Assembly (NCBI GenBank): GCA_041661005.1
Contig: JBAZVG010000001.1
Span: 196,917 to 260,916 of the forward strand
DNA length: 64,000 bases
Direction of reading: 5' to 3'
Source of the DNA: Minisyncoccota bacterium
Lineage (GTDB): Bacteria; Patescibacteriota; Minisyncoccia; Phycocordibacterales; UBA9973
How positions within the stretch are numbered: position 1 is the first letter of the stretch; every line of letters begins with the position of its first letter. The translations under genes and the position numbers were made by a program. Below, piece by piece: positions 1 to 61,280 of this stretch. The notes beneath the pieces are model-generated. The model did no database searches. It was given only the letters and a program-made list of their open reading frames with translations, and was not told where the DNA came from.

Positions 1-1006
<1,006 letters not shown>

Positions 1007-12391: not shown

Positions 12392-13600
12392 TTGAAAAAT
12401 AATTTACCTCTTTCCTATATTGAAATTTCTAAAAAGAATTTGATTCACAATATCAAACAATTTAGGAATTTAATAAAAGCGGGAACTAAGATTTCTGTAG
12501 CCATAAAAGGCAATGCTTATGGCCATGGACAAAATATCGTAGCAAAAATTCTTGAGCCACACGTAGATTATTTTCAAGTAAATAACGTGGAAGAGCTTGA
12601 ATCATTGCGTAAAATAAGTCAGAAAAAAGCTTTTGTTTTAGGGTATGTGCAAAATTCGGATTTACCACGTGCTATACGATCAAATTGTATTTTGACTGTC
12701 TTCTCTCTCGGTCAATTAAAAGAAATAAACAAGATATCAAAGAAGCTTAAAAAAATACAAGAAGTTTGTGTCCCAGTTGATGCATATTTAGGGCGTGAAG
12801 GATTTTTATTTAGTGACTTGGGCGAGATTTTCGAAGAAATAAAAAAATCTGGATACGTAAAATTTACAAGTATCTATGCGCATTTTGCAAATATTGAAGA
12901 TGTGTCAAATTTTACTCATGCGCAAAAACAGATTAAGGAATATGAAAAAGCTTTAGAATTGGCGAAAATGTTCGGTTTTGAAAACCCGCCTAGACCCGTT
13001 TCGACGCAAGGCGAGCTCGGCGAGGCTGGCCCGCCTAGACTCGGCGAGGCTGGTTTGCAAACACATATATCTGCCACTTCTGGAATTTTGGTTTATGAAA
13101 AAGATAGTGGAATTAATTCAATCGTGCGATTGGGTATCGGCGCATACGGCATGTGGCCATCAGAACATTTAAAAAAAGTTTATGAAAATGAAAAATTCAA
13201 TCTGAAACCAGTGTTGTCATGGAAAACAAAGATCGCGCAAGTAAAAATCTTAGAAAAAGGGAATACCGTTGGTTATGGATTGACCTATAAAACAAATCAG
13301 AAAACAAAAATAGCAATTATCCCTCAAGGATATGCCGATGGTCTAGATCGTGGTCTTTCAAACAAGGGAGAGGTTTTGATCGGGGGCGCTCGATGTAAAA
13401 TCATAGGCAGGGTATCGATGAATATGTTTGCGGTTAATGTAAATCATTTGTCAGTTGTTAAAGTCGGCGACGAAGTTGTGATTATCGGAATTCAAAATAA
13501 AGAGAAAATTACGGCAGAGCAGGTGGCGAAAAAATTAGATACGATAAATTATGAAATTACCACGCGGATAAGTTCTTTATTGCCGAGAGTTATTACGTAG
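12392..13600 (+). CDS. alr: Alanine racemase
   Basis: PLP-lysine motif AIKGNAYGHG and the C-terminal beta domain. Carries in-frame 45-nt and 24-nt repeat copies (12985-13053). Confidence 0.85.
   Translation: MKNNLPLSYIEISKKNLIHNIKQFRNLIKAGTKISVAIKGNAYGHGQNIVAKILEPHVDYFQVNNVEELESLRKISQKKAFVLGYVQNSDLPRAIRSNCILTVFSLGQLKEINKISKKLKKIQEVCVPVDAYLGREGFLFSDLGEIFEEIKKSGYVKFTSIYAHFANIEDVSNFTHAQKQIKEYEKALELAKMFGFENPPRPVSTQGELGEAGPPRLGEAGLQTHISATSGILVYEKDSGINSIVRLGIGAYGMWPSEHLKKVYENEKFNLKPVLSWKTKIAQVKILEKGNTVGYGLTYKTNQKTKIAIIPQGYADGLDRGLSNKGEVLIGGARCKIIGRVSMNMFAVNVNHLSVVKVGDEVVIIGIQNKEKITAEQVAKKLDTINYEITTRISSLLPRVIT
12985..13053 (+). repeat. In-frame 45-nt palindromic element (12985-13029) plus adjacent 24-nt deletion derivative (13030-13053) inside alr
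   Basis: CCCGCCTAGACCCGTTTCGACGCAAGGCGAGCTCGGCGAGGCTGG followed by CCCGCCTAGACTCGGCGAGGCTGG. Translated as PRPVSTQGELGEAG then PPRLGEAG. Other copies lie at 14046, 29298 and 54860. Confidence 0.75.
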
Positions 13601-13965: not shown

Positions 13966-14883
13966 TTATTTGGTTAATAATTTCCGCTTTGTTTTTCGCT
14001 GTTGGTGAATTTTTGTCAGGCGAATTTTCTTAGAAGCCCGCCTAGACCCGCTTCGATGCGAAGCGAGCTCGGCGAGGCTGGCATCAAACCATTTTATTTC
14101 TTTATCGCGCTTAAACCATGTCATTTGACGTTTAGCGTATTTTAGAGTTTCAGTGACGACTTTTTCTGGCGTCGGTTTGTAGTATTCAAAACCCAATTCT
14201 TTCAGTCGTTTTTCTGACACACCATTCTTTTTTAACTTTTTAATTTCATTAAGTAAGCCATCTTTGAACATCTTTTTGACCCTTTTTTCTACTTTCTGTC
14301 TTAGTTTATCCTGCGGTAAATACAAGCCTATTTTTATAAATTTATACGGAGGAGACTTCTCCGTAATTTTTGGAACTTTACCGAGAGCTTTCACTATTTC
14401 AATTGCCCTGATTAATCTGATTTTATTTTTTGGGTCTATATTCTTTGCTCGCTCGGGGTCTATTCTTTTTAAATACTCAAATAATGCTATCGCTGATTTT
14501 GAGTATAGTTCTTTACGAAGCTTTTCATTTGGCGGAACTTCTGGGAAAATAATACCTTTAGTCATTGCATCAATGTAAAATCCCGTGCCTCCGCAAATTA
14601 TCGGAGTTTTACCTCGAGCGATTATTTCTTTTATTTTATCTTCAGCTAATTCTTTATATTGCGCTACAGTAAATTTTCTTTTAGGGTTCGCGATGTCTAG
14701 CAGATGATGGGGGACGCCTCGCATTTCTTTTCTTGTTATTTTTCCCGTGCCAATATCAAGGCCTTTGTAAACTTGTCGTGAATCAGCTGAAATTATTTCT
14801 CCATCTATTTTTTTAGCAATCTTTACGGCTAAATCACTTTTACCTGTAGCTGTTTGACCTAATATGATAATGATTGTGGGCAC
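13966..14883 (-). CDS. miaA: tRNA dimethylallyltransferase
   Basis: P-loop GQTATGKS, DSRQVYKGLDIGT(G)K. Likely GTG start at 14883 giving MPTIIIILGQTATGKS. The ORF track extends it to 15003 by reading through the intergenic repeat. The C-terminal tail contains an in-frame copy of the 45-nt element. Confidence 0.85.
   Translation of the reverse strand: MPTIIIILGQTATGKSDLAVKIAKKIDGEIISADSRQVYKGLDIGTGKITRKEMRGVPHHLLDIANPKRKFTVAQYKELAEDKIKEIIARGKTPIICGGTGFYIDAMTKGIIFPEVPPNEKLRKELYSKSAIALFEYLKRIDPERAKNIDPKNKIRLIRAIEIVKALGKVPKITEKSPPYKFIKIGLYLPQDKLRQKVEKRVKKMFKDGLLNEIKKLKKNGVSEKRLKELGFEYYKPTPEKVVTETLKYAKRQMTWFKRDKEIKWFDASLAELASHRSGSRRASKKIRLTKIHQQRKTKRKLLTK
14046..14090 (+). repeat. 45-nt palindromic element, copy within the miaA 3' region (read on the reverse strand as ASLAELASHRSGSRRA)
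   Basis: CCCGCCTAGACCCGCTTCGATGCGAAGCGAGCTCGGCGAGGCTGG, 45 nt, with internal hairpin CGCTTCG-ATG-CGAAGCG. Confidence 0.75.
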
Positions 14884-14907
14884 AGATTGAAAAACGAACT
14901 TTTTTTT

Positions 14908-14979
14908 GGTACGGATTTTTTGAAGCTTGAAAAATCCTGAAGTTCTCGGCTCGTCAGCCTCGAAACCCCGCAAAAAGTT
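14908..14979 (+). repeat. 72-bp intergenic repeat, copy 2 (in the miaA 5' leader / murA 3' flank)
   Basis: GGTACGGATTTTTTGAAGCTTGAAAAATCCTGAAGTTCTCGGCTCGTCAGCCTCGAAACCCCGCAAAAAGTTG. Confidence 0.65.
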
Positions 14980-15002
14980 GTTTTTTATTATTCGCCTCTG
15001 CA

Positions 15003-16538
15003 TTAATTTCCCTTGATTATTTTAATATCTGCGCCGATGGAATTCAATCGCTCGGCGATTTCTTCGTAACCACGATTTATCATATAAACGTTTCGTAGTA
15101 TTGAAGTGCCACTAGCTCCAAGCATTGAGATAAGTATTACCATTGATGGTCGTAAGGCCGGTGGGCAAACGACTTGAGCTCCCTTTAACGCTGTTCCGCC
15201 GTTGATATAGAGGCGATGTGGATCTGCGAGGGTAATATCTGCGCCTAGGCGGTTTAATTCAGTCAGATATATCGCGCGATTCTCATAAACCCAGTCATGG
15301 ATCATTGTTTGACCTTTGGCCTTTATGGCAATAGGCACAAAGAATGGCAGGTTGTCTATATTTATTCCGGGATAGGGATTGGAGTGTAATTTATCATAAA
15401 GAGCTTTTAGTTTGCTTGGGAAAATTTCTACATCTACTAATTTTGTTCGTCCATTAAAAGAATAATAAATTTTTGAAGCTTTGAATTTTAAATTCATTCT
15501 TTTTAGTTTTTCCAATTCTAAAGAAAGAAAGTCTATGGGGACGCGAGTGATGCTGAGTCTCGAGTCAGTGATAATTCCAGCAGAAATAAACATCATGGAT
15601 TCTATAGGGTCTTCACTGTTCCAATATTCTATATCTTTATTTATATTTGCTACGCCATGCACGGTCAGATTGGCAGTGCCGATACCTTCTATTTTTACAC
15701 CCAAAGCTTCAAGAAAAAAACAAACTTCTTGCACCATATAGTTTGCGCTGGCAAAGTTTATTTTTGTGGCGCCAGGTATAAGAGCAGAAGCCATCAAAAC
15801 ATTTTCACAGGCCGTGTCTCCAGATTCATACATTACTATTTCACTTGGTTTTAGTTTTCGTGAAGAGATTTCATAATTCTTTGCCGTAGTCTTTACTTTT
15901 ACCCCGAGTTTTTCTAGGGCGTAGATGTGGGCGGCTATTGTGCGTTTACCTAGATTGCATCCATGTGGATGGGGGAGAGAAAAGGTTGATAATTTATGAA
16001 TGAGTGGACCCATGAGCATTACGACTGAACGAGTTTTGACCGCTGACTCTATGTTTATATTTTCTAAATTAAATTTCTCTCCTGGTGTGATGGTTAAAGT
16101 ATTCTGGTTTAGCCATTTTATTGCGACCCCGATACTTTCGAGAATTTCAATGACCCGATACACTTCCTCGATTCGCGCTATGCCATGCAAGGTTGTTGTC
16201 CCCCTGTTTAAGAGCGAAGCGCAAAGAAGCCCGACCGAACCATTTTTAGAAAAATTAGTTTTGATAGTTCCACTTAATTTTTTCCCTCCATGCACTTCGA
16301 AATCGATCGAATCATTTATAGAAACTATTTGATGATCTAAAACATTGCTTATTTTTAAAAGTAATTCAGTTGTAAAATTTTGTTCGCCTTTTTCCATTCG
16401 GGGGATAGAACTTTGAGAAGTATTCAGCGCTTTAGCAAATTGCTCTTGAGTCATTCCGCGGTGTTCGCGCAATTCTTTGATAAAATAACCTATCTTTTGT
16501 TGTTCGGTCTGTACTGTTGATTTTATATTTTTTGTCAT
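15003..16538 (-). CDS. murA: UDP-N-acetylglucosamine 1-carboxyvinyltransferase (MurA) with an N-terminal HTH_XRE DNA-binding domain fusion
   Basis: N-terminal ~75 aa reads GYFIKELREHRGMTQEQFAKALNTSQSSIPRMEKGE (XRE HTH). The rest is an EPT fold with a GCNLGKR loop and ~420 aa MurA-like sequence. Confidence 0.8.
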   Translation of the reverse strand: MTKNIKSTVQTEQQKIGYFIKELREHRGMTQEQFAKALNTSQSSIPRMEKGEQNFTTELLLKISNVLDHQIVSINDSIDFEVHGGKKLSGTIKTNFSKNGSVGLLCASLLNRGTTTLHGIARIEEVYRVIEILESIGVAIKWLNQNTLTITPGEKFNLENINIESAVKTRSVVMLMGPLIHKLSTFSLPHPHGCNLGKRTIAAHIYALEKLGVKVKTTAKNYEISSRKLKPSEIVMYESGDTACENVLMASALIPGATKINFASANYMVQEVCFFLEALGVKIEGIGTANLTVHGVANINKDIEYWNSEDPIESMMFISAGIITDSRLSITRVPIDFLSLELEKLKRMNLKFKASKIYYSFNGRTKLVDVEIFPSKLKALYDKLHSNPYPGINIDNLPFFVPIAIKAKGQTMIHDWVYENRAIYLTELNRLGADITLADPHRLYINGGTALKGAQVVCPPALRPSMVILISMLGASGTSILRNVYMINRGYEEIAERLNSIGADIKIIKGN

Positions 16539-26810: not shown

Positions 26811-26837
26811 ATCCCTCAATGAGTTTACTTTATTTTT

Positions 26838-28663: not shown

Positions 28664-29722
28664 ATGCACGACTTGGCATTATATCGCAAATATCGGCCGA
28701 AAAACTTCAAGGAAGTCTTGGGGCAAGATCATATCGTAAAAGTGCTGGAAAGCTCTGTAGAAGCCAACAAGGTTTCCCACGCATACCTTTTTGTAGGTTC
28801 GCGTGGCACAGGCAAAACTTCCGTCGCCAGAATTTTTGCAAATGAAATCGGTGTATCAGCCAATGACTTATATGAGATAGACGCCGCCAGCAATAGGGGA
28901 ATCGAAGATATAAAAGAATTGCGTGATGGCGCGCGAGTATTGCCTTTTGATTCAAAATACAAAGTTTATATAATCGACGAAGTGCATATGCTCTCCAAAG
29001 ACGCTTGGGGTGCGTTATTGAAGACCCTAGAAGAACCTCCAAAACATGTTATTTTTATTCTAGCTACCACTGAGTTTCATAAAGTGCCTGAGACTATTAT
29101 CTCACGCTGTCAGGTTTTCACTTTCAAAAAAGCATCAGACGTAGTTTGTAAAAAAATGCTGACTGATGTTGGGAAGAAAGAAGGTTTCGATTTGGATGCC
29201 GGCTCGGCCGAGCTTTTAGCTGTATTATCTGATGGATCGTTCAGGGATGGATTGGGAGAGTTGCAAAAAGTTTTGAATTTCAGTGGAAGTAAGAAAACCC
29301 GCCTAGACTCGGCGAGGCTGGTCAATAGAGAAGATGTTGAAAAAATAACCGGCGCGCCAAAGGCGACTTTGGTAAATGATTTTATTTCAGCAATTGCAGA
29401 AAAAAATATTGAAAAAGGAATATCTGTCGTGCGATCTGCGGCTGAAGAAAATTTAGATATGGAATTATATTTGAAACTCATTATCGCAAAATTCCGTATG
29501 GCGATAATTTTGCGATACGCGCCAAAATTAAAAGGAGAGATGATAGGGGATTTATCTGAAGCTGATTTAGAATTTCTGCAGATTTTAATAAAAGAAAGTG
29601 GGGAGATGTTTAATTCTTCTACTCTAGCGACACTTTTAGAAGCTTATCAGAATATAGATAATGCGTTTATTACCGAGTTACCACTGGAGCTTGCGTTAGT
29701 GAAGATTTTAAGCAAAGAGTAA
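28664..29722 (+). CDS. dnaX: DNA polymerase III gamma/tau subunit (short form)
   Basis: YRKYRP..F.EV.GQ.H ... HAYLF.G.RGTGKTS.ARI.A ... AWGALLKTLEEPP. Carries an in-frame 24-nt repeat copy. Confidence 0.85.
   Translation: MHDLALYRKYRPKNFKEVLGQDHIVKVLESSVEANKVSHAYLFVGSRGTGKTSVARIFANEIGVSANDLYEIDAASNRGIEDIKELRDGARVLPFDSKYKVYIIDEVHMLSKDAWGALLKTLEEPPKHVIFILATTEFHKVPETIISRCQVFTFKKASDVVCKKMLTDVGKKEGFDLDAGSAELLAVLSDGSFRDGLGELQKVLNFSGSKKTRLDSARLVNREDVEKITGAPKATLVNDFISAIAEKNIEKGISVVRSAAEENLDMELYLKLIIAKFRMAIILRYAPKLKGEMIGDLSEADLEFLQILIKESGEMFNSSTLATLLEAYQNIDNAFITELPLELALVKILSKE
29298..29321 (+). repeat. 24-nt short form of the 45-nt element inside dnaX (translated TRLDSARL)
   Basis: CCCGCCTAGACTCGGCGAGGCTGG, identical to the short copy in alr. 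Confidence 0.7.
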
Positions 29723-32446: not shown

Positions 32447-32532
32447 GGAAATGGGTGATTAAAATAAGGGAGGCGGGCGACCTTGGAGCCTGCATCCCTA
32501 TGCTAACGTACCGGCAAAATACGTCAATGAGG

Positions 32533-32796
32533 TCACTGGCTAAGACGGTTCTCGTCGGGCTCCTTGTCTGAACCCGGCTGCTTCAGAATCCCGAAGAAGC
32601 GAAGTAGACGCACAGCGATTTCTTGGATCTCGTCGTCGCTAAGACGCTTACCGAACTCCTCTTGGTAAATGGCTCTGAACTCCTCGATAGCTTCACGACT
32701 TAGTTGTTGTGGTGTTTTCATATCGTCCACTTTACTTGCTGTTACTCTTCGGCAAAGGACGGAAGAATTGCCACATACGGCATGTCCGCATTGCAC
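32533..32796 (-). CDS. Small helical hypothetical protein upstream of the recombinase (possible directionality or regulatory factor)
   Basis: ORF only; the likely true start is an internal Met (MKTPQQLSREAIEEF...). Confidence 0.3.
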   Translation of the reverse strand: MQCGHAVCGNSSVLCRRVTASKVDDMKTPQQLSREAIEEFRAIYQEEFGKRLSDDEIQEIAVRLLRFFGILKQPGSDKEPDENRLSQ

Positions 32797-33024
32797 TTGG
32801 AACTAGAATTCGGGGCACCTCCCTTGACGAATAGCGAGTTTCGTGCTTAAATACGAAAACCTTCCACCGAGTTCAAGAAGCTCGGTGTTTAATAGGTTTG
32901 CCATTTCTGGCAAAGGTTCCCGCCTTTGGTATTTTTACCATTGAGATATGGTGGTGTCGTGGAACTCGCATTGGGTTCCTCCGCTTCCACACTGATGACT
33001 TCACTTCAACTTCCAAACTATTTG

Positions 33025-33366
33025 CTATCTAATCGAAAACGCCTGACTCTTTCTCAAGAAGAGGTCGCATTTCTGTTGGGAGCGGGAAGGCGGCGTATTG
33101 TCCACCTTGGTCGTCGCGGCGAGCGTGACCCGCGAGAGGCGGTTGCCGGCATCGTCGTAGGCGTATGACTCAGCCGAACCGTCGGAATATGCGGCGTTGG
33201 TGAGGCGGGACAGGGGGTCGTGGGAATGCTCGAAAGTGGCGCCATTTACTTGCGATATCGCAAGGATAATGCAACCGCAGGCCAAAACGTAAACAGCGGT
33301 AAACATAATACACCTCATACTAGTTATTGTTAAATACGTTAAATACGATTCGGATAACCAACCCAA
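33025..33366 (-). pseudogene. Fragment: signal peptide plus a single YD/RHS repeat (YAYDDAGNRL), likely a remnant of an RHS-family protein
   Basis: Hydrophobic N-terminus MFTAVYVLACGCIILAISQVNGA, then a YxYDxxGRL-type repeat, then an unrelated tail. Confidence 0.4.
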
Positions 33367-33471
33367 TCATTGTAATCGAAATAACTAACCACATAGGTGG
33401 AAGAAGCGGCCCATCATGACCGAAAAATAAACCACGTAAAAACGAAATTATCTGCTGGATTGTTTGCTTTT

Positions 33472-34962: not shown

Positions 34963-35287
34963 AGATAATTGTTAATTATCCGTGATGTGGGCGAGATGTC
35001 TTGTTCGGAAATGTGTGTTTCGTATCCGACATTGCGGTAGTCAGTGCAGGAGACCAAGGAAGATGTTGCTAGTCTGCTGGATTCCTCTCTCTTGGTTCTT
35101 CGCAAGACAGTGTTCTGTCACAAAAGTGATCGAATTACAGTGGGCTTTTGTTTTCGGAGCGAGGCTTTGATAACGGATTTCTGGTGCATACACATACCAC
35201 AGCCTAATGTTTTTGAATTACTGGTCTATGAGTTATGATTGTCCTCCTGCGAGATTTATAGAGAAATAGTTTGCTGGATGAGGGCGT

Positions 35288-35761
35288 ATGTTGAGGTATA
35301 TGCATATTTGGTGCTATAATGAGAACATGTGGGTTATTTATGCATTTATAGCTGCATTGTTGTGGGGTCTTGATTATGCACTTACAGAAAAAGTACTAAA
35401 CAGGATTACATTCTCGACATTGCTCAGTATTGAGTTGTTTTTCGGTCTGCTTGGTATGCTCTTGTTGGGGCTTTTACGGGGGACGTATTGGAAAGACTGG
35501 TCAGTGATTCTCTCTTCCCAAAAGATAATATGGCACGTTGTTATAATTGTGCTTGTGTTCAACATCGCCAACACTTTTATCGTTCTTTCCATTGGAAACA
35601 AGAACGCCACCCTTGCGGGCTTAATTGAGATTTCTTACCCCTTGTTTATTGCCGTTTTTTCGTGGTTCTTGTTCAAGGAGAGCCATGTTAACCTATGGAC
35701 AGGAATTGGTGCGGTATTGGTGTTTAGCGGGATTGGGTTGATCTACTACGTCAACAAATGA
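35288..35761 (+). CDS. EamA/DMT-family transporter half (4-5 TM), hypothetical
   Basis: Hydrophobic protein with an EamA-like WGLDYALTEK region; 157 aa, likely a fragment. Confidence 0.4.
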   Translation: MLRYMHIWCYNENMWVIYAFIAALLWGLDYALTEKVLNRITFSTLLSIELFFGLLGMLLLGLLRGTYWKDWSVILSSQKIIWHVVIIVLVFNIANTFIVLSIGNKNATLAGLIEISYPLFIAVFSWFLFKESHVNLWTGIGAVLVFSGIGLIYYVNK

Positions 35762-35862
35762 AGAGGAAAAGGGACGCTCATCCTTGCCGGCGTCGGCAAA
35801 TAAGAAAAAGGGCGACCCGATTGGATCGCCCTTGTGATTAGTAGTCTTCCGGCACCCAAGCG

Positions 35863-36240
35863 GTGAGTTTGTTTGAGCAGGCAATTTTGGTCGCTCAAGC
35901 ATTACATGATTTGCGATATGAAGGATTCTGGATGGGTAGTCTTGGTGTCCTTTATATGGAAGAAAAGCACTACAAGGACGCGGAAGCTTTCTTGCAACGC
36001 GCTTTGGCAATCGCTATTCAAATAGGTGACCAACGTTACGAAGGAACGCATTTGAGTTGGCTTGGGGATTTATACACCACGACGGGCCAATTTCAGAAAG
36101 CTCGTGAATGCCTTGAAAGGGCCGTGAAATTGGCAGAGGATCTGCAGATTGAATCATGGATTCAGCAGCGCAAAGCGAAAATTGAGAAATTGGAACGTTT
36201 GGAGAAGGAGGCGGGTGACCACGCTCGTCCTCAAATCTGA
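35863..36240 (+). CDS. TPR-repeat protein fragment
   Basis: Three TPR-like helical repeats (..AE.FLQRALAIA...GDQRYEG..L..LGDLY...GQFQKA.E.LERA..LA). Confidence 0.4.
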   Translation: MSLFEQAILVAQALHDLRYEGFWMGSLGVLYMEEKHYKDAEAFLQRALAIAIQIGDQRYEGTHLSWLGDLYTTTGQFQKARECLERAVKLAEDLQIESWIQQRKAKIEKLERLEKEAGDHARPQI

Positions 36241-36855
36241 TTGGACCTTATTGGACAAAGCTCGAACTCTTTTCGATGAACATCGAAGTGATACGCAGAA
36301 AACGATGCCGATGAACCGACCGGATGATTTCACCGTCGCGCTCGGTGATTTGGATGGGGGCAACCGCAGATGCGCGTTTGAAACGGGGAAGACGATGGGA
36401 TTCCATCCATCCACGGTAACGAAGATCAAGCTCCTAATGTAGGAGGCGGGGTTTGCGCACTGCGCCAAGTCACATAATCTCGGTGATGTTTCAGTATAAT
36501 CATTGGAAGCAAATTGTCACTATTACATTAACACTCTGCAATCCTAGCTTGACGGACAATAGGCACTTACTTACGGATAAACGATAAAAGCCCCTTCGGG
36601 GTGTTGGATGATGAATAATGGATGTTCAAACGCGCCAATATCGTAGCACAAAAAAAACTCCGAATACATACAATGACGTATTCGGAGTCACGCTTTGATA
36701 CAACCAACAGATGCGTGATTCTTGTTGGGCGACCCTTTGGTCCGCTCAAGGCTCGGGTAGATCCAAGAGAAGCCGAGTTAAGACGAGGTTATCCCAGGGA
36801 ACTCGGACTGCTGGGACACACATTATAGCACAGGTAAGTGGCAATGTGTCATCAT

Positions 36856-37581
36856 CTAAACATTGTCGTCTTGATTTAGTCCACCCCTTACCTCCGCTAG
36901 CCTCCGCGACAGAGACAGCAATTCGTCTTCCATTCCAAAATATGACCAGTCCTGAATGTAGCGGGTGTAGAACGAGTAAATGCCAGCACTGAATCCGTTC
37001 AATAGCCTATCCGATATCCACTCATTTCCAAACTCAATACGGAAATCATCGAGAATGTCATCATTCTTGAGTCTTAAGAGTTCCGCAGCTTCGCCTTCAA
37101 CTGCGTCTTGGCACAACGCTAAAACCTCTCGACAGCGTTGCCTGATGTCTAACTGGTGCGTCGGAATACGGGTCCAGTTATGGCGTTCGGAGAGGTGGAG
37201 GTCATCTCTAAAGCATCCAAGGAGTGTATCGTTAGTCGCCAATTCTTCCCAGATCTTCCGGGCTCTTGGAGTGACCGTAATTGCGTCGCCTGGACTCAAT
37301 AAAGATGGTGCATACCCTCTGTCAGATTCAATCAAGCGTTCGGCATATAATTCATCGAGCATGTCGCTCATCTGCTCTGGCTTTTTCGCGAAATAGCTAG
37401 CACCAATTGCATTCATGGCATCCAACGTCCATGGCGACCGTGTGCGCTCTTCAACGAATGGTTCCACCAGTCGGCGATGAGAATGCGGCTGCCACAACGG
37501 CAGCAGATGGGGAATCAACCAGCGCTTGCCACCCGGCCATTTGAGCGGTGGCCGGTTCTCCGTTGTGCTCGTAATCGGCAA
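36856..37581 (-). CDS. Hypothetical protein with an N-terminal remnant of a D12-class (Dam-like) adenine MTase motif
   Basis: PLKWPGGKRWLIPHLLPL....RLVEPFVE matches the Dam N-terminal motif (KWAGGK..L...I......Y.EPF.GGG), but the rest is unrelated. Confidence 0.35.
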   Translation of the reverse strand: MPITSTTENRPPLKWPGGKRWLIPHLLPLWQPHSHRRLVEPFVEERTRSPWTLDAMNAIGASYFAKKPEQMSDMLDELYAERLIESDRGYAPSLLSPGDAITVTPRARKIWEELATNDTLLGCFRDDLHLSERHNWTRIPTHQLDIRQRCREVLALCQDAVEGEAAELLRLKNDDILDDFRIEFGNEWISDRLLNGFSAGIYSFYTRYIQDWSYFGMEDELLSLSRRLAEVRGGLNQDDNV

Positions 37582-37743
37582 GGCTGGAGAGAAGTCACGC
37601 GAGTTGTGACTGACGACAGAAACACGCCTTTGAAATGGGCGTAGATGAGTGCGGCTGCCCGTTCTGCTTTGTGACCATAGGCTCGAACATCGTCCAGTCC
37701 TCTCAGCATTTTAAATGAGAGTGATTACTTGCAATTATCCTTG

Positions 37744-37766
37744 CTTGCAATGAAAAAAATTGCAAG
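37744..37766. promoter_or_regulatory. Dyad CTTGCAAT-N7-ATTGCAAG (plus an extra TTGCAAT half-site at 37729) upstream of an extended -10 (TGATATAAT ~37787-37795) preceding the putative REase gene
   Basis: Read from the sequence. Confidence 0.4.
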
Positions 37767-37801
37767 TTTATAACTTTCTAGGAAAGTGATATAATCCCAA
37801 C

Positions 37802-38638
37802 ATGTCTAGTAATTTAATCGGAAAAACAGAAGCTATCAATTTTCTTAATGTATCAGAAAAAGATTTTAAAAATTACCATGAATCTAGTAAAGAAATAGAA
37901 GGTCAAAAAATATCAGGAAGATGGTATTTTGATAAACAAAAATTAGAAGAATGGAAAAAATTAAAGGGAGAAAGAACCATATTTTTAACTATTAGTGAAT
38001 ATGAAAAATGTTTTCAATTTGCAATTAAAATGGTTTATGGAGGACTTTCTCTTAATGGAATAAGAGGACAAAGAACAGAGGTTCAAGCAGCAGACGATGT
38101 TATTTTAGGAATTCTTGCAGAACATGCTGTTAAGAATTTTCTAAAAAATAAATTCTCAATCGAAATAGAATTAGACGAAGAAGTTCACCCAGAACGTATT
38201 ACCCCTCAAGACTTTGATAAAATCAAGGTAAATAATGTTTTCAAAACACCTAAAATAGGTGTGGGTATCAAAGCAAGTAAAATGAAAAACGCCTTTTTGG
38301 TTTTAGGAGGTAATGAAGTAGACCTCAAGGAAAGAAGAAGTGATGTTTATGTATTTGCCAGAGTAGGTTTACCAAGCGACCACTTATTTAGGATTTTACG
38401 AGACCATTCATTCTTTAAACAAGTAAGAGAATTTATGGATAAAGATAAAAAATTTAGAAAAATAGAATTACTAAAACCAATTCCAATATGGATATGTGGT
38501 TTTACATACAAAGAAGAGTTAGAAAAAGTAACTGAAATTCCGGGTCAAGAATTTGCAAATGGGTATAGATATGTTAAGTCTGTAAGTAAACTTCACAACT
38601 CAGACCAAGACTGGAAAAATCTTATAAAAAAACTTTAA
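37802..38638 (+). CDS. Putative type II restriction endonuclease with N-terminal excisionase/MerR-type HTH (HTH_17-like)
   Basis: Convergent with and abutting a C5-MTase gene (2-nt gap). N-terminus LNVSEKDFKNYHES..ISGRWYFDKQKLEEWKK matches the (G)RW.F....L..W pattern. No clear PD-(D/E)xK motif could be assigned by eye. Confidence 0.5.
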   Translation: MSSNLIGKTEAINFLNVSEKDFKNYHESSKEIEGQKISGRWYFDKQKLEEWKKLKGERTIFLTISEYEKCFQFAIKMVYGGLSLNGIRGQRTEVQAADDVILGILAEHAVKNFLKNKFSIEIELDEEVHPERITPQDFDKIKVNNVFKTPKIGVGIKASKMKNAFLVLGGNEVDLKERRSDVYVFARVGLPSDHLFRILRDHSFFKQVREFMDKDKKFRKIELLKPIPIWICGFTYKEELEKVTEIPGQEFANGYRYVKSVSKLHNSDQDWKNLIKKL

Positions 38639-38639
38639 T

Positions 38640-39647
38640 CTAGTATGCCATGGCTAGGGACAACCTAGGTTGTGTAGCTTGTTGCGTTTGTCCATTCAGC
38701 ACCTCCTGAATATTGTTCGCAATTCTACCAATGACAGAAATACTTACGGAATTACCGAATTGTTTATATAAATGTGAATCTGAAATATTTGGTAATTTAT
38801 AGGAATTAGGAAAACCTTGTAGGCGAGCACATTCTCTTGGTGTTAACTTTCGTATACCACGAGAATCCCTTACTAAGGGGACATTATGACCTCCTGTACC
38901 CATATTTGCAGTTAAAGTAGGACATACTCCACTTTTATTATGTCTTATATATTGTCGTCTCCATTGATAGACATCTCCAATTTCAAAATCGTACTTTTTT
39001 AACTTTTCAAACAAAGGTTTGTCGTTATAATAGTATTTCTGATCAATAAATTCTGGCTTTTCCAAAATATCTAAAACAGTTTTATTTCTTTCAATTTTTT
39101 CAGGAAATTCAAAACTATTAATATATCCAGTATCTTTTCTAAAACCAACAATATATATCCGCTCTCTGTTTTGGGGAACATTCCCATAATGCATACTATT
39201 TAATATTTCAGCTTTAACATCATAACCAAGCTCATCCAATGTTTTCAGAATGACACGAAATGTATTTCCATTATCATGATTATAAAGATTTTTTACATTT
39301 TCTAAAAGAAAGCCAATGGGTTTTCTTTCATCAATTATTCTTGCAACATCAAAAAATAAATTACCCCTGTCATCTTTAAATCCATGACGATAACCAGCAA
39401 TAGAAAATGCCTGACATGGGAATCCACCCAATAAAAAATCAAATTGGGGTAAATCACTAATTTTAATTTTTCTTATATCCTCAACAGTTAAAGCTGTATC
39501 TTTAAAATTTAGATCGTAAGTATCTTTGCATTTAGGTTCAAAATCATTAGCAAAGACTGTATTAAAGCCAGCTTTTTCAAAGCCAATTCTTATACCTCCG
39601 ACTCCCGCAAATAAGTCTATTGTTCTATATTTTTTTACATTTGCCAT
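38640..39647 (-). CDS. DNA (cytosine-5)-methyltransferase
   Basis: Motifs I DLFAGVGG, IV GFPCQAFS, VI ENVKNL, VIII QNRERIYIVG, X RKLTPRECARLQGFP. Confidence 0.9.
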   Translation of the reverse strand: MANVKKYRTIDLFAGVGGIRIGFEKAGFNTVFANDFEPKCKDTYDLNFKDTALTVEDIRKIKISDLPQFDFLLGGFPCQAFSIAGYRHGFKDDRGNLFFDVARIIDERKPIGFLLENVKNLYNHDNGNTFRVILKTLDELGYDVKAEILNSMHYGNVPQNRERIYIVGFRKDTGYINSFEFPEKIERNKTVLDILEKPEFIDQKYYYNDKPLFEKLKKYDFEIGDVYQWRRQYIRHNKSGVCPTLTANMGTGGHNVPLVRDSRGIRKLTPRECARLQGFPNSYKLPNISDSHLYKQFGNSVSISVIGRIANNIQEVLNGQTQQATQPRLSLAMAY

Positions 39648-39718: not shown

Positions 39719-40084
39719 ATGAGTGATGAAGAGAATAGTATAAATAGACTAGGCATTGACCAGACTAGTTTGGGGAAACTAAAACCTGAAGATCTTAATA
39801 ATGCAAAAACTGCTGGAATGGTTTTAAATTACTTAACCTCTCTAGAGTCTGAAAATACTCAACTTAAAACAAAAAATGAAACCTTGAGTACTTATGTGAG
39901 TAGTTATAATAATCAAAAAAATAATTCAAAAATTGCTGCAACTTTATCTTTAATTTCAGTTGTCTCTATTGGTTTTGCAATAAATATTCTTACAAGTGAT
40001 AGTAAAAATTATGGAGGTTATATACTTTTAATCATTGGTATTGTGCTGCAGTTATATAGTACCTATTTAACTTATAAAGAATGA
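39719..40084 (+). CDS. Hypothetical membrane protein (2 C-terminal TM)
   Basis: ORF only. Confidence 0.35.
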   Translation: MSDEENSINRLGIDQTSLGKLKPEDLNNAKTAGMVLNYLTSLESENTQLKTKNETLSTYVSSYNNQKNNSKIAATLSLISVVSIGFAINILTSDSKNYGGYILLIIGIVLQLYSTYLTYKE

Positions 40085-40386
40085 GATATATTTTTAATAC
40101 ATCAGGTGAATACGTGGCCTTTATTTCAGGAGATAATTTATTTAATCTGAACTGCGATTGGATTGGTTTTATTTTAAACGGCAATGAAGTTTATTCATCA
40201 AACGATTTATCTTTTATTGGCTATATTAGTGCAGATGATAGAATCTTAGGTAAAAGAAATGATTTACGTAAACTTCGTCCATTACGACCACTTCGTCCAT
40301 TACGACCACTTCGTCCATTACGACCACTTCGCAGACTAAGAATGCTTAGAGTGCCTTATCCATGGTTTGATGTGTTTGAAAAATAA
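40081..40386 (+). CDS. Hypothetical protein with (LRP)n tandem repeat
   Basis: The ORF contains RKLRPLRPLRPLRPLRPLRRLRMLR, encoded by a 9/18-bp DNA tandem repeat (40272-40335). Confidence 0.3.
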   Translation: MRYIFNTSGEYVAFISGDNLFNLNCDWIGFILNGNEVYSSNDLSFIGYISADDRILGKRNDLRKLRPLRPLRPLRPLRPLRPLRRLRMLRVPYPWFDVFEK

Positions 40387-52365: not shown

Positions 52366-55335
52366 ATGATTTCACGGATATATGTGATACCTAAAAACGA
52401 AGCAACCAAGGCAGATTCTTATTTGATTGACTCTAAATTATCTAAAAAAGAACTTGTAAAACTAGCTCAGACACTTACTAATCCTATTTTGGAGGATTAT
52501 TTTATAGACGAATCTCCAAGAGTTGGAAACTTTTCCCATGCAATCGAAATAGGATTTTTACCGGGGGTCACAGATAATGTCGGCCATACAGTCAAAGAAA
52601 TTGCGACAGATATGCTTCATCTAAAAAAGAATTTCAGTTTGGCGGTTTATACCTCCAAGATTTTTTTTATTAATTCACACGGCCTTGAAGACGCCCAGAA
52701 ACACTCTCTTACTTTATACAATCCGCTTATTGAAAGAGCCCTTTTTGTAGAGATAAAATCCGGAAAAATAGATTTGCCAAATAAAATACCTGAAGTTGTT
52801 TTAAGAAAAGGTGTGTCAATTTTACCTGTTTCACTTTCAGTGTCAGATGAAGAACTTATAAAAATAGGGAAAGAAGGAATACTGGACGAGACAAATTTAC
52901 GCAGGGGACCTTTAGCGCTTGATCTATCTTCAATGCAAGCTATTCAAAAATATTTTTCTTCGCTAAAAAGAAACCCGACTGATATAGAGCTCGAATCTCT
53001 AGCTCAAACTTGGTCAGAACATTGCAAGCACACTATTTTTGCAAATGAAATAGATGATATTAAAGATGGCTTGTATAAAACTTACATAAAAGGGGCGACA
53101 AATTTAATAAGAAAACAAAAGACAGAGAGAGGTCAGCAGGATTTTTGTGTTTCTGTTTTTAGTGATAATGCTGGCGGAATAATTTTTGATGAAGATTATT
53201 TAATAACACACAAAGTCGAAACCCATAACAGCCCTTCGGCTCTCGATCCATTTGGTGGAGCAATCACAGGCATAGTAGGGGTGAATCGCGACACAATCGG
53301 CTTTGGATTGGGCGCCAAACCGATAGCCAATACTTATGGATTTTGTTTTGGTAATCCGGAAGATACAAGACCGCTTTTTCGAGATAAAGAGCAGAAACAA
53401 AGAATGCTTTTACCGAAACGCATCATGGAAGGGGTGGTAAAGGGAATAAACGTCGGAGGAAACTGCTCCGGGATTCCGACTCTTTCTGGATTTATCAAAT
53501 TTGACGATAGATATAGGGGGAAACCTTTGGTTTTTGCCGGAACTGTTGGATTAATTCCAAGAAACTTATCTATCCATGGAGGGAAAAAACAACTATCGCA
53601 TGAAAAACAGGCACGAGTAGGGGATTATATAGTTATGGTTGGTGGAAGGGTAGGACTCGATGGAATACATGGAGCCACTTTTTCTTCCGTAACTATGGAT
53701 TCGACTTCTCCTGCGACAGCAGTGCAGATAGGAGATCCGATAACTCAAAAGAAACTTAGCGATAGCATCGTCAAAGAAGCGCGCGATATGAATTTATATA
53801 CTAGCATCACAGATAACGGTGCTGGTGGGCTGTCATGTTCAGTATCCGAGATGGCAAAAGAATGCGGTGGAGCAAAAGTTTTCATAGAAAAAATACCACT
53901 TAAATATCCAGGTCTTCTTCCTTGGGAAATTTGGATTTCTGAATCGCAAGAACGAATGACTTTGTCTGTTCCAAAAAATAAATGGAAAATGTTCCAAAAG
54001 TTGATGGAAAGTCGGGGGGTAGAAGCGATTGTGATTGGAGAATTCACAAATTCTGGAAAAGTTATCGTGCAATATAAAGGAAAAAAAATTATGGATATAG
54101 ATATGGAGTTTTTGCACAACGGATTGCCGAAACATTATTTAAACACTACTCCAGTGATAATCAAAAATCTTGAGCCTGCATTACCTAAAGGTCTATCACG
54201 CACAAAGGTTCTAGAAAAATTGTTAGGTGAAAAAAATATCAGCGGATTTGCTTTCATTTCCGAGCAGTATGACCACGAGGTGCAAGCATCTTCCGTGTTA
54301 AAACCGTTGTCCGGGAGGGGACGTATTAATACCGACAGTCAAATTTTTCGTCCGGTTTTGAATTCAAACAAAGGAGTTGTGTTGTCATCCTCAAGCTATC
54401 CTTCATACGGAGACATAAGCTCTTATGACATGGCATCTTGCGCGCTCGATACTGCAATTCGAAACATAATTGCATCAGGTGGTACGCTTTCACACCTTGC
54501 GATACTAGATAATTTCTGCTGGTGCTCATCAAATGATCCGAAACGGCTATACCAGCTTGTAGAGGCTGTAAAGGCTTGTCATGACACAGCTATCGGCTAC
54601 GGGACGCCGTTTATCTCTGGTAAAGACAGTATGTTCAATGATTTTAAAGGATATGATGAAAAAGGTAATCCTGTTTCTATCTCCATCCCGCCAACCCTTT
54701 TGATTTCTGCGATTAGTGTAATGCCTGATTTATATAAAACAGTTTCACCAGAATTTAAAAATAGTGGGGATATAATTTATTTACTGGGAGAAACGCATGA
54801 TGAATTAGGCGCAAGCGAATATTATAAACTTTTGGTAAAACAAGAGGGGAATAATGCAACCCACCTAGACCCGCTTCGATGCGAGGCGAGCTCGGCGAGG
54901 CTGGTAGGCAATAGTGTGCCAAAAGTTAATTTAGAAAAAAATCTAAAAACTTATTTAGCGTTAGAGAAGGCTATTCAAAAAGAACTGTTAGCTTCTTCGC
55001 TTTCTGTAACTTCCGGAGGCTTTGGAATCGCCTTAACTAAAGCATCTATTGGTGGAATGCTCGGATGTGAAATAAACATCAAAAACATGCTGGGGGGCTC
55101 AAATTTGGCCGATGTGAAGCTTTTTTCTGAAAGCCAGGGTAGGATATTGGTTTCTGTATCTCCTAAAAACACAAAGCAGTTTGAAAGAATAATGCAGGAA
55201 ATTCCTTGTGCTAAACTTGGAAAAGTAACAAAAAATGATAAGTTTGTAATTTTAGATGGTAAAGATAAAATTGTCGAAACAAATATTAAAAAATTGCACG
55301 CCATTTATCATAAATTTTCGAATTCACAACAATGA
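52366..55335 (+). CDS. purL: Phosphoribosylformylglycinamidine synthase subunit PurL with a large-type N-terminal (PurS-like) domain; glutaminase encoded separately
   Basis: RNPTDIELESLAQTWSEHCKHTIF (compare NP.DIEL.M.AQ.NSEHCRHKIF), VETHNSPSALDPFGGA, AIR-synthase-like domains; 989 aa. Carries an in-frame 45-nt element at 54860-54904. Confidence 0.85.
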   Translation: MISRIYVIPKNEATKADSYLIDSKLSKKELVKLAQTLTNPILEDYFIDESPRVGNFSHAIEIGFLPGVTDNVGHTVKEIATDMLHLKKNFSLAVYTSKIFFINSHGLEDAQKHSLTLYNPLIERALFVEIKSGKIDLPNKIPEVVLRKGVSILPVSLSVSDEELIKIGKEGILDETNLRRGPLALDLSSMQAIQKYFSSLKRNPTDIELESLAQTWSEHCKHTIFANEIDDIKDGLYKTYIKGATNLIRKQKTERGQQDFCVSVFSDNAGGIIFDEDYLITHKVETHNSPSALDPFGGAITGIVGVNRDTIGFGLGAKPIANTYGFCFGNPEDTRPLFRDKEQKQRMLLPKRIMEGVVKGINVGGNCSGIPTLSGFIKFDDRYRGKPLVFAGTVGLIPRNLSIHGGKKQLSHEKQARVGDYIVMVGGRVGLDGIHGATFSSVTMDSTSPATAVQIGDPITQKKLSDSIVKEARDMNLYTSITDNGAGGLSCSVSEMAKECGGAKVFIEKIPLKYPGLLPWEIWISESQERMTLSVPKNKWKMFQKLMESRGVEAIVIGEFTNSGKVIVQYKGKKIMDIDMEFLHNGLPKHYLNTTPVIIKNLEPALPKGLSRTKVLEKLLGEKNISGFAFISEQYDHEVQASSVLKPLSGRGRINTDSQIFRPVLNSNKGVVLSSSSYPSYGDISSYDMASCALDTAIRNIIASGGTLSHLAILDNFCWCSSNDPKRLYQLVEAVKACHDTAIGYGTPFISGKDSMFNDFKGYDEKGNPVSISIPPTLLISAISVMPDLYKTVSPEFKNSGDIIYLLGETHDELGASEYYKLLVKQEGNNATHLDPLRCEASSARLVGNSVPKVNLEKNLKTYLALEKAIQKELLASSLSVTSGGFGIALTKASIGGMLGCEINIKNMLGGSNLADVKLFSESQGRILVSVSPKNTKQFERIMQEIPCAKLGKVTKNDKFVILDGKDKIVETNIKKLHAIYHKFSNSQQ
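54860..54904 (+). repeat. 45-nt palindromic element copy inside purL (translated THLDPLRCEASSARL)
   Basis: CCCACCTAGACCCGCTTCGATGCGAGGCGAGCTCGGCGAGGCTGG. Confidence 0.75.
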
Positions 55336-59975: not shown

Positions 59976-61280
59976 GTGGGAAAAATTAACCAAATGAAAC
60001 AAGATAAACGAAAAATTTTAATAATTGGCGGCGGAGGAAGAGAACATGCAATAGGATGGAAAATTACCCAGTCTGAAAGGTCAGTGGACCTGTATTTTGC
60101 TCCTGGAAACGCGGGAACAGCTCAAATTGGAACAAATTTGCTTATCATGGCAACGAATGTATCAGGGCTCTTAAATTTCGCAAAGGAAGAGAAAATAGAT
60201 CTAATATTGGCTTTGCCTGACGATCCTCTTGCTCTCGGTATAGTTGATGAATTTCAAAAAGCGGGTATGCGAATTTGGGGTCCAACAAAGAGAGCGAGTG
60301 AGCTTGAGTGGTCTAAAGCATATGCTAAAGATTTAATGAAAAGACATAAAATCCCAACTGCGAAACACGAAGTTTTTACTAACTTTGAAAAAGCAAAAAC
60401 ATATATTGAAAAAGGGTCATTACCTATTGTGATCAAAGCAAGTGGGCTGGCGCTCGGGAAAGGCGTGACAGTCGCGCAAACGAAAGAGGAAGCCGTCGAA
60501 GCGCTTCATAAAATATTGGTAGATAAAATTTTTGGAAATGCCGGTAATGAAGTTGTGATTGAAGAATATCTATCCGGTATTGAAATTTCAATTCACGCAA
60601 TTTCTGATGGAAAATCATGGAAAATTTTTCCATCATCGCAAGATCACAAACGCATATTTGACGGAAATGTGGGTCCGAACACTGGCGGAATGGGAGTTAT
60701 TGCGCCACTGCCTTTTGTAGATGATAAACTTATGTTGCAAATTGAAAAAGAAATAATTAAACCCACCATAGATGGAATGAGAGAAGAGGGAAGACCGTTT
60801 GTTGGCATTTTGTATCCAGGAATAATGCTTACCAACGAAGGTCCGAAGGTATTTGAATTTAACGCGCGTTTTGGCGATCCAGAAACACAAGTCTATATGC
60901 GATTGCTTGATACGGATATTCTCGATATTATTGACGCCAGTATTGATGGTAAAATTTCTAACTTAGACATCCAGTGGAAAAAAAATAAATATGCCTGCAA
61001 TATTGCGCTGGCTTCAGCCGGTTATCCGGGAAATTATGAGAAGGGGAACCCCATCCTCCTTGAGGAGGGGGGAGGGGGTGGTGACATCATAATCTTTCAC
61101 GCCGGTACAAAAATAGAAAACAATAAACTTGTCACCAACGGCGGGCGAGTTCTGGGAGTCAGTGCCGTAGGTGATACTTTAAAAGAAGCGCTTAAGAAAG
61201 CATATAAAGCAATAGATAAAATTTCTTTTGCGGGGATGCAATATAGAAAAGATATCGGCAAAATTGCTCTTAAATTGTAA
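59976..61280 (+). CDS. purD: Phosphoribosylamine--glycine ligase
   Basis: ILIIGGGGREHAIGWKI N-terminus, ATP-grasp fold, C-terminal domain. Confidence 0.9.
   Translation: MGKINQMKQDKRKILIIGGGGREHAIGWKITQSERSVDLYFAPGNAGTAQIGTNLLIMATNVSGLLNFAKEEKIDLILALPDDPLALGIVDEFQKAGMRIWGPTKRASELEWSKAYAKDLMKRHKIPTAKHEVFTNFEKAKTYIEKGSLPIVIKASGLALGKGVTVAQTKEEAVEALHKILVDKIFGNAGNEVVIEEYLSGIEISIHAISDGKSWKIFPSSQDHKRIFDGNVGPNTGGMGVIAPLPFVDDKLMLQIEKEIIKPTIDGMREEGRPFVGILYPGIMLTNEGPKVFEFNARFGDPETQVYMRLLDTDILDIIDASIDGKISNLDIQWKKNKYACNIALASAGYPGNYEKGNPILLEEGGGGGDIIIFHAGTKIENNKLVTNGGRVLGVSAVGDTLKEALKKAYKAIDKISFAGMQYRKDIGKIALKL
61045..61085 (+). repeat. G-rich hairpin segment in purD (CCTCC-TTGA-GGAGG GGGGAGGGGGTGGTGA) related to the rsmI insertion
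   Basis: Shares the CTCCTTGA..GGAG.GGGG..GGGGGAG.GGTGA pattern with 3731-3786 and is translated LLEEGGGGGD. It may be partly native linker. Confidence 0.4.

What the first reader, a model, noticed from the sequence alone, without database searches (positions are those of the whole stretch)
54860..54904. 45-nt element copy inside purL, and 24-nt copy inside dnaX (29298-29321)
These are additional in-frame copies in the genes for an essential replication clamp-loader subunit and for FGAM synthase. They are translated THLDPLRCEASSARL in purL and TRLDSARL in dnaX. The 24-nt form is exactly the 45-mer minus its central 21-nt hairpin, which suggests recurrent hairpin excision that preserves the reading frame.
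Basis: seen in the sequence. Interest (0 to 1): 0.6.

Follow-up and report, generated by a model that had tools for sequence, protein, structure and literature searches.

The report
Tiny hairpin inserts inside essential genes
A 24-base GC-rich hairpin, and a 45-base version with a second hairpin nested in its loop, sit in frame inside purL, dnaX, alr and miaA of an ultra-small (CPR/Patescibacteria) bacterium, and they belong to a very widespread family of miniature, probably mobile repeats that are translated as extra protein loops.

Summary
The 45-mer lies at 54859-54903 in purL and the 24-mer at 29297-29320 in dnaX. Further copies lie in alr (45-mer plus 24-mer in tandem) and, antisense, in the 3' end of miaA. 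None of 120 PurL orthologs carries the 15-residue insert. About 100 of 120 DnaX orthologs lack any insert at that codon.

The genome is a Paceibacterota/Nomurabacteria (CPR) bacterium. The exact 24-mer ("module A") occurs in at least 117 contigs, mostly from many CPR classes. More than half the copies lie inside long ORFs, in both orientations, and almost never in the frame that reads its TAG.

The central 21 nt ("module B") is a separate hairpin module. It occurs alone, and it also hosts A in its own loop. The 45-mer is therefore a nested composite, and that composite is itself dispersed.

At the dnaX codon, A is 24/24 identical in lineages whose synonymous sites are saturated. The DnaX proteins that carry A are scattered among empty ones. 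This points to repeated, precise insertion or loss.

Best reading: non-autonomous miniature mobile hairpins, like REP elements, Rickettsia palindromic elements and yeast mitochondrial GC clusters. The mobilising enzyme is unknown. "Recurrent excision" is not shown.

The parts
54859..54903 (+). 45-nt composite (module A with module B in its loop), in frame in purL, read as THLDPLRCEASSARL
   Evidence: absent from 120 PurL orthologs
54871..54891 (+). module B inside the purL copy (CCGCTTCGATGCGAGGCGAGC; 7-bp stem with one G-T pair and a 3-nt loop)
29297..29320 (+). 24-nt module A, in frame in dnaX, read as TRLDSARL (residues 212-219)
   Evidence: lies in a coil in the AF2 model
12984..13028 (+). 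45-nt composite in alr, read in a different frame (PPRPVSTQGELGEAG)
13029..13052 (+). 24-nt module A directly abutting the alr 45-mer (PPRLGEAG); together the two add 23 residues compared with solved Alr structures
14036..14080 (+). 45-nt composite with the best-preserved palindrome; it lies antisense in the 3' tail of miaA (ASLAELASHRSGSRRAS), after the IPPT domain
52366..55335 (+). host gene purL (FGAM synthase, 989 aa)
28664..29722 (+). host gene dnaX (clamp-loader gamma/tau, 352 aa)
12392..13600 (+). host gene alr (alanine racemase)
13966..15003 (-). host ORF miaA (tRNA isopentenyltransferase); its 5' end is probably over-extended across a 97-nt repeat

Best explanation
The 24-mer (module A) is (G)CCCGCCT-AGACTCGGCG-AGGCTGG(C), an 8-bp stem with one mismatch. 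The 21-mer (module B) is CGCTTCG-AYG-CGARGCG. Both belong to a family of very small GC-rich hairpin repeats dispersed through AT-rich Patescibacteria genomes. They behave as non-autonomous mobile DNA. A copy is written precisely into a new site as a net 24 nt with no detectable target-site duplication, and often into the loop of another hairpin module. This produces nested composites such as the 45-mer (B in the loop of A) and the reverse arrangement (A in the loop of B). A composite then spreads as a unit, because only the outer stem defines the element. The modules are multiples of three in length and carry a stop codon (the loop CTAG) in only one frame per strand. Insertions into surface loops or tails of proteins therefore survive selection and are translated as 8 or 15 extra residues, whose sequence depends on frame and orientation. 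Shown here: the clean presence/absence, the nesting, the frame filter, the wide distribution, the lack of a linked gene, and the patchy distribution at one codon of dnaX. Inferred: that movement is enzymatic and acts in trans, through a hairpin-recognising nuclease or recombinase encoded elsewhere. The enzyme is unidentified.
For: Insertion relative to orthologs is seen in purL (0 of 120), dnaX, alr (23 extra residues) and topA with a different module. It has 0 hits in viral contigs. Of 128 copies, 71 lie inside long ORFs (38 sense, 33 antisense, using all four stop-free frames), 9 lie at ORF edges and 48 are non-coding. Only 5 sit in the TAG frame with open reading on both sides. Nesting occurs in both orders, and A sits at several positions in the B loop. 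The exact 45-mer composite occurs at six or more further loci in metagenomes. At the dnaX codon, A is 24/24 identical in 5 of 6 lineages, while third-codon positions elsewhere are only about 50% identical. A-bearing DnaX proteins are no closer to each other than random sets: 0.836 against 0.851, with empty nearest neighbours. A different 33-nt palindromic module occupies exactly the same site in L126. Individual copies decay: purL has 1 substitution, the alr B module has 2, and L123 has 2. This argues against strong in-situ selection. No protein family recurs near the copies (maximum 5 of 117 loci). The DnaX insert lies in a coil of the model.
Against: No transposase or other mobilising gene was found. 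No target-site duplication or clear target motif appears beyond a purine at -1 and a pyrimidine at +1. There is no orientation bias relative to local GC skew, which a strictly single-strand, replication-coupled mechanism would predict. No near-identical relative was available to show an empty purL site at nucleotide level. Exact identity of a 24-mer across deeply diverged CPR classes is unusual for a selfish repeat; REP sequences, for comparison, differ between species. The 24-mer alone does not fold better than shuffled sequence (z = -0.66). The dnaX scatter rests on similarities within a single gene, not on a species tree.
Confidence: 0.68

Rival explanations
1. The 45-mer is the original element, and the 24-mers arise again and again by precise loss of the central hairpin through replication slippage or enzymatic excision.
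For: The 24/45 dimorphism occurs at the identical nucleotide position in dnaX and in ligA. The junction of the composite is identical at nine or more loci. Hairpins are known substrates for deletion (established knowledge).
Against: 112 of 123 matches are the bare 24-mer. B exists independently and hosts A in its own loop. L115 has a different B-in-A junction with extra bases. Only 1 nt of direct repeat flanks B, so identical slippage end points are unlikely. At dnaX there are 7 short forms against 1-2 long forms.
Confidence: 0.15
2. The 24-mer is a functional DNA or RNA signal, such as a binding site for a conserved CPR protein, an uptake or recombination signal, or an mRNA hairpin. It would be an old feature kept identical by selection rather than by recent movement.
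For: The sequence is identical across lineages whose synonymous sites are saturated and across many CPR classes. Non-coding copies are enriched about 3-4 fold over the share expected from an assumed ~10% non-coding fraction typical of CPR genomes. Some non-coding copies are followed by T runs, like terminators (L011, L068).
Against: Copies arise as clean 24-nt insertions, not by point substitution. Density is low, at 5 copies in 64 kb. Carriers are scattered among empty orthologs. Copies decay. Other, unrelated palindromic modules occupy the same site. Both orientations and all open frames are used.
Confidence: 0.12
3. The extra peptides are selected for a function at the protein level.
For: TRLDSARL is conserved in 6 of the 8 A-bearing DnaX orthologs; the other two read TRPDSARL and the 45-nt form.
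Against: The same DNA is read in four different frames and orientations, giving unrelated peptides: TRLDSARL, PPRLGEAG, and the antisense ASLAE...SRRAS or PASPS...GLGG. The GC-rich codons are kept even though the genome is AT-rich. Most orthologs do without the insert.
Confidence: 0.03
4. The copies are an assembly, adapter or chimera artefact.
For: None specific. The only grounds are that the same short GC-rich sequence appears in many metagenome assemblies.
Against: The copies are in frame and at orthologous positions in assemblies from independent projects, including a single-cell genome (L062). Flanks differ, and the sequence matches no adapter I can recall (from memory).
Confidence: 0.02

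Closest known systems
Yeast and fungal mitochondrial GC clusters (for example the optional in-frame clusters of var1)
   Same: Both are short GC-rich palindromic clusters in an AT-rich, gene-dense genome. Both show presence/absence polymorphism and in-frame insertions that enlarge a protein. Clusters merge and shuffle into composites, and no transposase is encoded (PMC8811140).
   Different: GC clusters are organellar and fungal, not bacterial. They have AG/TAG terminal repeats read as target duplications, which were not seen here. Their sequences vary greatly between species, whereas this 24-mer is invariant across CPR classes.
Rickettsia palindromic elements (RPE)
   Same: Both are palindromic repeats inserted in frame into unrelated housekeeping genes of a reduced genome. 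They are translated as extra surface segments, and no linked transposase is known (PMC10969869).
   Different: RPEs are about 100-150 bp and restricted to Rickettsia. The modules here are 21-48 nt, nest inside each other and are spread across a superphylum.
REP/BIME elements and REPINs mobilised by RAYT (Y1/HUH) transposases
   Same: Both are imperfect GC-rich palindromes of 20-40 nt, form mosaics of modules, are non-autonomous and lack a target duplication (established knowledge).
   Different: REPs are extragenic, carry a conserved GTAG-type 5' tetranucleotide, are organised as inverted doublets and are specific to a species and its RAYT. None of these holds here, and no RAYT was found.
Bacterial MITEs (Correia, RUP, Nezha, ERIC)
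   Same: Both are non-autonomous dispersed repeats with inverted ends, and some MITEs give in-frame gene fusions (PMC10969869).
   Different: MITEs are at least about 50-100 bp, have target-site duplications and share ends with a parent IS. Here the whole element is 24 nt, with no duplication and no parent IS.

Membership tests
REP/REPIN (RAYT-mobilised) | Short GC-rich imperfect palindrome of 20-40 nt | tested here: met
   A has an 8-bp stem with one mismatch and B has a 7-bp stem. The miaA 45-mer folds at -26.4 kcal/mol (z = -3.0); the bare 24-mer is not significant.
REP/REPIN (RAYT-mobilised) | Extragenic location | tested here: not met
   71 of 128 copies lie inside long ORFs and 9 lie at ORF edges.
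REP/REPIN (RAYT-mobilised) | Conserved GTAG-like tetranucleotide 5' of the palindrome | tested here: not met
   The flank logo shows only G/A at -1 and C/T at +1, with no GTAG.
REP/REPIN (RAYT-mobilised) | Inverted doublets (REPIN organisation) | tested here: not met
   Copies are singletons or head-to-tail tandems. The only loci with both orientations (L023, L064) have the copies 2.7-4.5 kb apart.
REP/REPIN (RAYT-mobilised) | A cognate RAYT (Y1 transposase) gene in the genome | tested here: inconclusive
   No protein family recurs near the copies. There is no IS200/IS605 TnpA-like tblastn hit in about 1.1 Mb, but the query was recalled from memory. Whole genomes were not scanned.
Rickettsia palindromic elements | In-frame insertion into unrelated protein-coding genes, with translation | tested here: met
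   Searches support this. Translation is inferred from depletion of the stop-bearing frame and was not measured directly.
Rickettsia palindromic elements | Length of about 100-150 bp, membership of the RPE-1..10 sequence families, Rickettsia host | tested here: not met
   The modules are 24-45 nt and the host is a Paceibacterota (CPR) bacterium.
MITE | Target-site duplication flanking terminal inverted repeats | tested here: not met
   The net insertion is exactly 24 nt at dnaX and inside module B, and positions -1 and +1 are not identical.
MITE | A parent IS sharing the same ends | tested here: inconclusive
   None was seen in 117 loci of up to 8 kb. Complete genomes were not searched.
Mitochondrial GC clusters | Short GC-rich palindromic cluster in an AT-rich genome, optional in-frame insertions, cluster merging | tested here: met
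   Searches support this. It is a functional analogy only, because the host here is a bacterium and not a mitochondrion.
Mitochondrial GC clusters | AG/TAG terminal direct repeats | tested here: not met
   Flank logo.
DNA uptake sequences (DUS/USS) | About one copy per kb, built up by point substitution rather than insertion | tested here: not met
   There are 5 copies in 64 kb, and the copies are clean 24- or 45-nt insertions.

The most novel reading that the evidence does not exclude
Patescibacteria carry a superphylum-wide class of mobile DNA smaller than any described MITE. It consists of codon-neutral (3n), stop-poor, self-nesting hairpin modules of 21-48 nt. A conserved and still unidentified trans-acting machinery writes them, without target duplication, into hairpin loops and repeatedly into the same codon of essential genes such as dnaX and ligA. 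That machinery holds the 24-nt sequence invariant across classes.
Probability: 0.3. Interest if true: 0.85.

Novelty: new variant of a known kind. Interest (0 to 1): 0.65.

Why it matters
If this reading is right, the smallest bacterial genomes known tolerate, and keep acquiring, miniature selfish hairpins inside essential replication and biosynthesis genes. [quoted passage not shown] It would also give a simple sequence marker: an exact 24-mer.

The recurrence at a single codon and the invariance of the sequence make the mobilising activity findable by phylogenetic profiling. The inserts mark permissive loops in DnaX, PurL, Alr, LigA, TopA and GrpE.

The inserts also matter for annotation. 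They inflate apparent protein divergence, and, together with a separate 97-nt repeat, they can extend ORFs, as at both ends of miaA here.

Tried and rejected
- **Rfam.** No family matches the element at gathering score or at E up to 10.
- **Viral contigs.** The pattern has no match.
- **Linked gene.** All-against-all clustering of 1,935 ORFs from 117 loci found no family in more than 5 loci.
- **IS200/IS605 TnpA.** tblastn over all held DNA gave no hit below E = 3. The query was recalled from memory, so this is a weak test.
- **Orientation against replication.** There is no bias relative to local GC skew (46:57). The all-plus orientation in the window reflects only four independent events and is probably chance.
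- **Adjacent flanks forming a stem.** A crude contiguous-pairing test was not enriched (7 against 4.8 expected). The nesting claim therefore rests on the specific B-half flanks.
- **Direction of the 24/45 change at ligA.** The three LigA proteins are equidistant at about 73% identity, so this was unresolved.
- **Non-CPR hosts.** The "Bathyarchaeia" contig L014 is identical to the Moranbacteria contig L054. The "Gammaproteobacteria" contig L005 has Woesebacteria/Microgenomates relatives. These labels are unreliable.
- **Literature.** Four searches for a description of such repeats in CPR found nothing. The library is incomplete, so prior description cannot be excluded.
- **Rejected readings.** Protein-level function, an uptake signal and an artefact were all considered and rejected; see the rival explanations.
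Full report
**Observation**

The two sequences are present, one base below the stated coordinates. The 45-mer ACCCACCTAGAC-CCGCTTCGATGCGAGGCGAGC-TCGGCGAGGCTG lies at 54859-54903. The 24-mer ACCCGCCTAGAC-TCGGCGAGGCTG lies at 29297-29320. Each begins on a codon boundary of a long ORF and is read as THLDPLRCEASSARL or TRLDSARL.

Pfam and solved-structure searches identify the hosts as purL and dnaX. Three more copies lie on the same strand. A 45-mer at 12984-13028 is directly followed by a 24-mer at 13029-13052 in alr, where it is read in another frame (PPRPVSTQGELGEAG-PPRLGEAG). A 45-mer at 14036-14080 lies antisense in the 3' tail of miaA. Shuffled controls give no such matches.

**Are they insertions?**

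Yes.
- None of 120 PurL orthologs has the 15 residues. The nearest read ..LAKQENNNA-IGNNVPKV.., against ..LVKQEGNNA[THLDPLRCEASSARL]VGNSVPKV.. in the window.
- Most of the 120 DnaX orthologs (82-86% identical) read ..LNF-SKxKK-I/VKREDVEK.. and are 345 aa long. The window has 8 extra residues between KK and V.
- Alr carries 23 extra residues, equal to 45 + 24 nt, compared with solved racemases.
- In the AlphaFold model of DnaX (mean pLDDT 83.7) the insert lies in a coil between helices 193-206 and 222-229. This is just before domain III, which Pfam starts at residue 220.

**Organism and distribution**

The DnaX protein is 100% identical to one from an 813-kb "Candidatus Paceibacterota" contig, and its relatives are Nomurabacteria.

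Most carry CPR labels: Nomura-, Giovannoni-, Falkow-, Moran-, Levy-, Gottesman- and Lipton-bacteria and Saccharibacteria.

Non-CPR labels are unreliable. The "Bathyarchaeia" contig is identical to a Moranbacteria contig. A 265-kb "Gammaproteobacteria" contig has hrcA-grpE synteny, and its MurJ has closest named relatives in Woesebacteria/Microgenomates. Viral contigs have no match.

**Anatomy: two modules that nest**

Of 123 matches, 112 are the bare 24-mer, which I call module A. With its preferred flanking G and C, A is a hairpin: GCCCGCCT / AGGCTGGC, with one mismatch.

The central 21 nt of the 45-mer is a second hairpin, module B: CGCTTCG-AYG-CGARGCG.
- B occurs on its own with various loops, for example cccgcttcgccaaagctacagcgaggcgag.
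- B also carries A inside its own loop, at three or more different loop positions (L025, L035, L091, L110 and others).
- B sits in the loop of A in the window's 45-mers. It does so with a different junction in L115.
- Head-to-tail tandems of A occur in alr, L006 and L075.

The exact 45-mer composite is itself dispersed. A metagenome scan found it at six or more further loci, including an IF2-like gene, the ligA N-terminus and dnaX. The 45-mer is therefore a nested composite that now spreads as a unit.

**Coding bias**

Of 128 copies of A, 71 lie within long ORFs (38 sense, 33 antisense, using all four stop-free frames). Nine lie at ORF edges and 48 are non-coding.

The loop CTAG gives a stop in one frame per strand. 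Only 5 copies sit in that frame with 60 or more open codons on both sides, where about 35-40 would be expected if frame did not matter.

So genic copies are read through by the ribosome, and stop-bearing insertions are purged. Non-coding copies are over-represented relative to an assumed (not measured) non-coding share of about 10%, typical of CPR genomes, which indicates selection against many genic insertions.

The lengths seen in genes (24, 21, 45, 33, 48, 36 nt) are all multiples of three. This is required for survival in genes, but A is 24 nt in non-coding DNA too.

**Dynamics at one codon**

In six DnaX lineages the element sits at the identical nucleotide position (aaa aaa | ACC ... CTG | gtN aaa). 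It is 24/24 identical in five of them. Third-codon positions at conserved residues elsewhere in the gene are only 45-58% identical, that is, saturated.

The A-bearing proteins do not cluster. Their nearest neighbours are empty alleles. Their mean pairwise identity (0.836) is no higher than that of random sets (0.851).

L118/L133 carry the 45-mer at this site. L126 carries an unrelated 33-nt palindromic module at exactly the same site. L125 carries a 48-nt CCCTCCCCTT..AAGGGGAGGG module four codons upstream.

The ligA N-terminus shows the same 24/45 dimorphism. Individual copies do decay: purL has 1 change, the alr B module has 2, and L123 has 2. Ungapped variants of A are few.

Together this indicates repeated, precise gain or loss at preferred sites, rather than one old insertion preserved by selection.

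**Mechanism**

Shown:
- Net insertion of exactly 24 nt, with no target duplication and no clear target motif beyond purine/pyrimidine at -1/+1.
- No linked gene.
- No orientation bias against local GC skew.
- No IS200/IS605-like transposase near the copies, although that test was weak.

Inferred: a trans-acting activity recognises the outer stem and tolerates any loop content. This would explain both the nesting and the spread of composites. Which enzyme does this is unknown. The window's only recombinase is a large serine recombinase, and it belongs to a tRNA-linked island.

**Comparison with known elements**

The behaviour matches three known kinds of element:
- Yeast mitochondrial GC clusters: in-frame optional insertions in var1, merging of clusters, no encoded transposase (PMC8811140).
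- Rickettsia palindromic elements: in-frame selfish DNA in housekeeping genes (PMC10969869).
- REP/BIME mosaics.

It is not a member of any of them. It is not extragenic, has no GTAG, forms no inverted doublets, has no target duplication and is far smaller than RPEs or MITEs. Its 24-nt sequence is constant across classes instead of being species-specific.

Four literature searches found no description of such repeats in CPR. The library is partial.

**Verdict**

The "insertion in essential genes" reading is supported. The "recurrent hairpin excision" reading is one possible direction of a real 24/45 dimorphism, but it is not shown and is less economical than modular nesting.

I rate it a new variant of a known kind, namely intragenic palindromic mini-repeats. 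It is of above-average interest because of its size, its nesting, its recurrence at single codons and its conservation across the whole superphylum.

Noticed in passing
window 11276-11372, 14890-14986, 26720-26816: A 97-nt repeat family (74-82% identical) with roughly 16-nt inverted ends (AATAATCAAACTTTTT...AAAAGTTTATTATT) and an internal GGATTTTTT..AAAAATCC hairpin, so it looks like a MITE. Two copies lie between genes. The third overlaps the annotated 5' end of the miaA ORF, which is therefore probably over-extended.
   Followed up: partly
window 22817-22854 (topA, minus strand, ORF 21213-23465): A different GC-rich double-hairpin insert (CACCCCGCCCTAAAGGGCACCCCTCCTCAGGCAGGAGGGG) adds 12 residues (HPALKGTPPQAG) that are absent from three TopA orthologs. 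Its ..PPQAGG.. motif resembles inserts seen at the DnaX hot spot in other lineages.
   Followed up: partly
window 30696-38640: A higher-GC stretch (0.44-0.49 against about 0.36) starts at a tRNA (30696-30766). It holds a large serine recombinase (30707-32446, minus strand), an RHS-repeat fragment, a TPR protein and ORFs without Pfam hits, and is followed by a C5 cytosine methylase (38640-39647). It is probably an integrated island.
   Followed up: partly
window 19507-20127 (minus) and tRNA 20087-20170 (minus): A 206-aa ORF with a LAGLIDADG domain. Its start overlaps a tRNA gene on the same strand. It may be a homing-endonuclease relic or a mis-called start.
   Followed up: no
window 61058-61085 (purD ORF 59976-61280); also 6284-6313 and 23029-23059: Further GC-rich, partly palindromic islands lie inside AT-rich genes, for example CCTCCTTGAGGAGGGGGGAGGGGG. 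Whether they are insertions was not checked against orthologs.
   Followed up: no
window 40264-40331 and 18094-18229: In-ORF tandem repeats: an 18-nt unit repeated three or more times (TTACGACCACTTCGTCCA) in ORF 40081-40386, and units of about 40 nt in the Pfam-less ORF 17999-18922.
   Followed up: no
loci L002, L015, L016, L030, L058, L064, L074, L097, L104 (Patescibacteria MAG223 and relatives): Here module A is always embedded in a longer repeated unit..cgggggtcccgagcaaatttagg..ggaatcgccagccagagg[A]ctggtcgctcttcgagcgagattccc... This is a larger composite repeat present in many copies per genome.
   Followed up: no
L018 (OZ218778.1, 2.88-Mb chromosome, local GC 0.51): An exact copy of the 24-mer lies in a closed 2.9-Mb genome, which is too large for a CPR bacterium. 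This may be a genuine non-CPR carrier or a case of horizontal transfer.
   Followed up: no
L014 versus L054; L005: Public MAG taxonomy labels are wrong for some contigs. The Bathyarchaeia contig is 100% identical to a Moranbacteria contig. The "uncultured Gammaproteobacteria" contig is Woesebacteria-like.
   Followed up: yes
L118 13729-13971 and L121 4093-4353: Small (80-86 aa) GIY-YIG nuclease genes lie within a few kb of dnaX in two relatives. They are not present in the window at this position, and no link to the repeats was tested.
   Followed up: no
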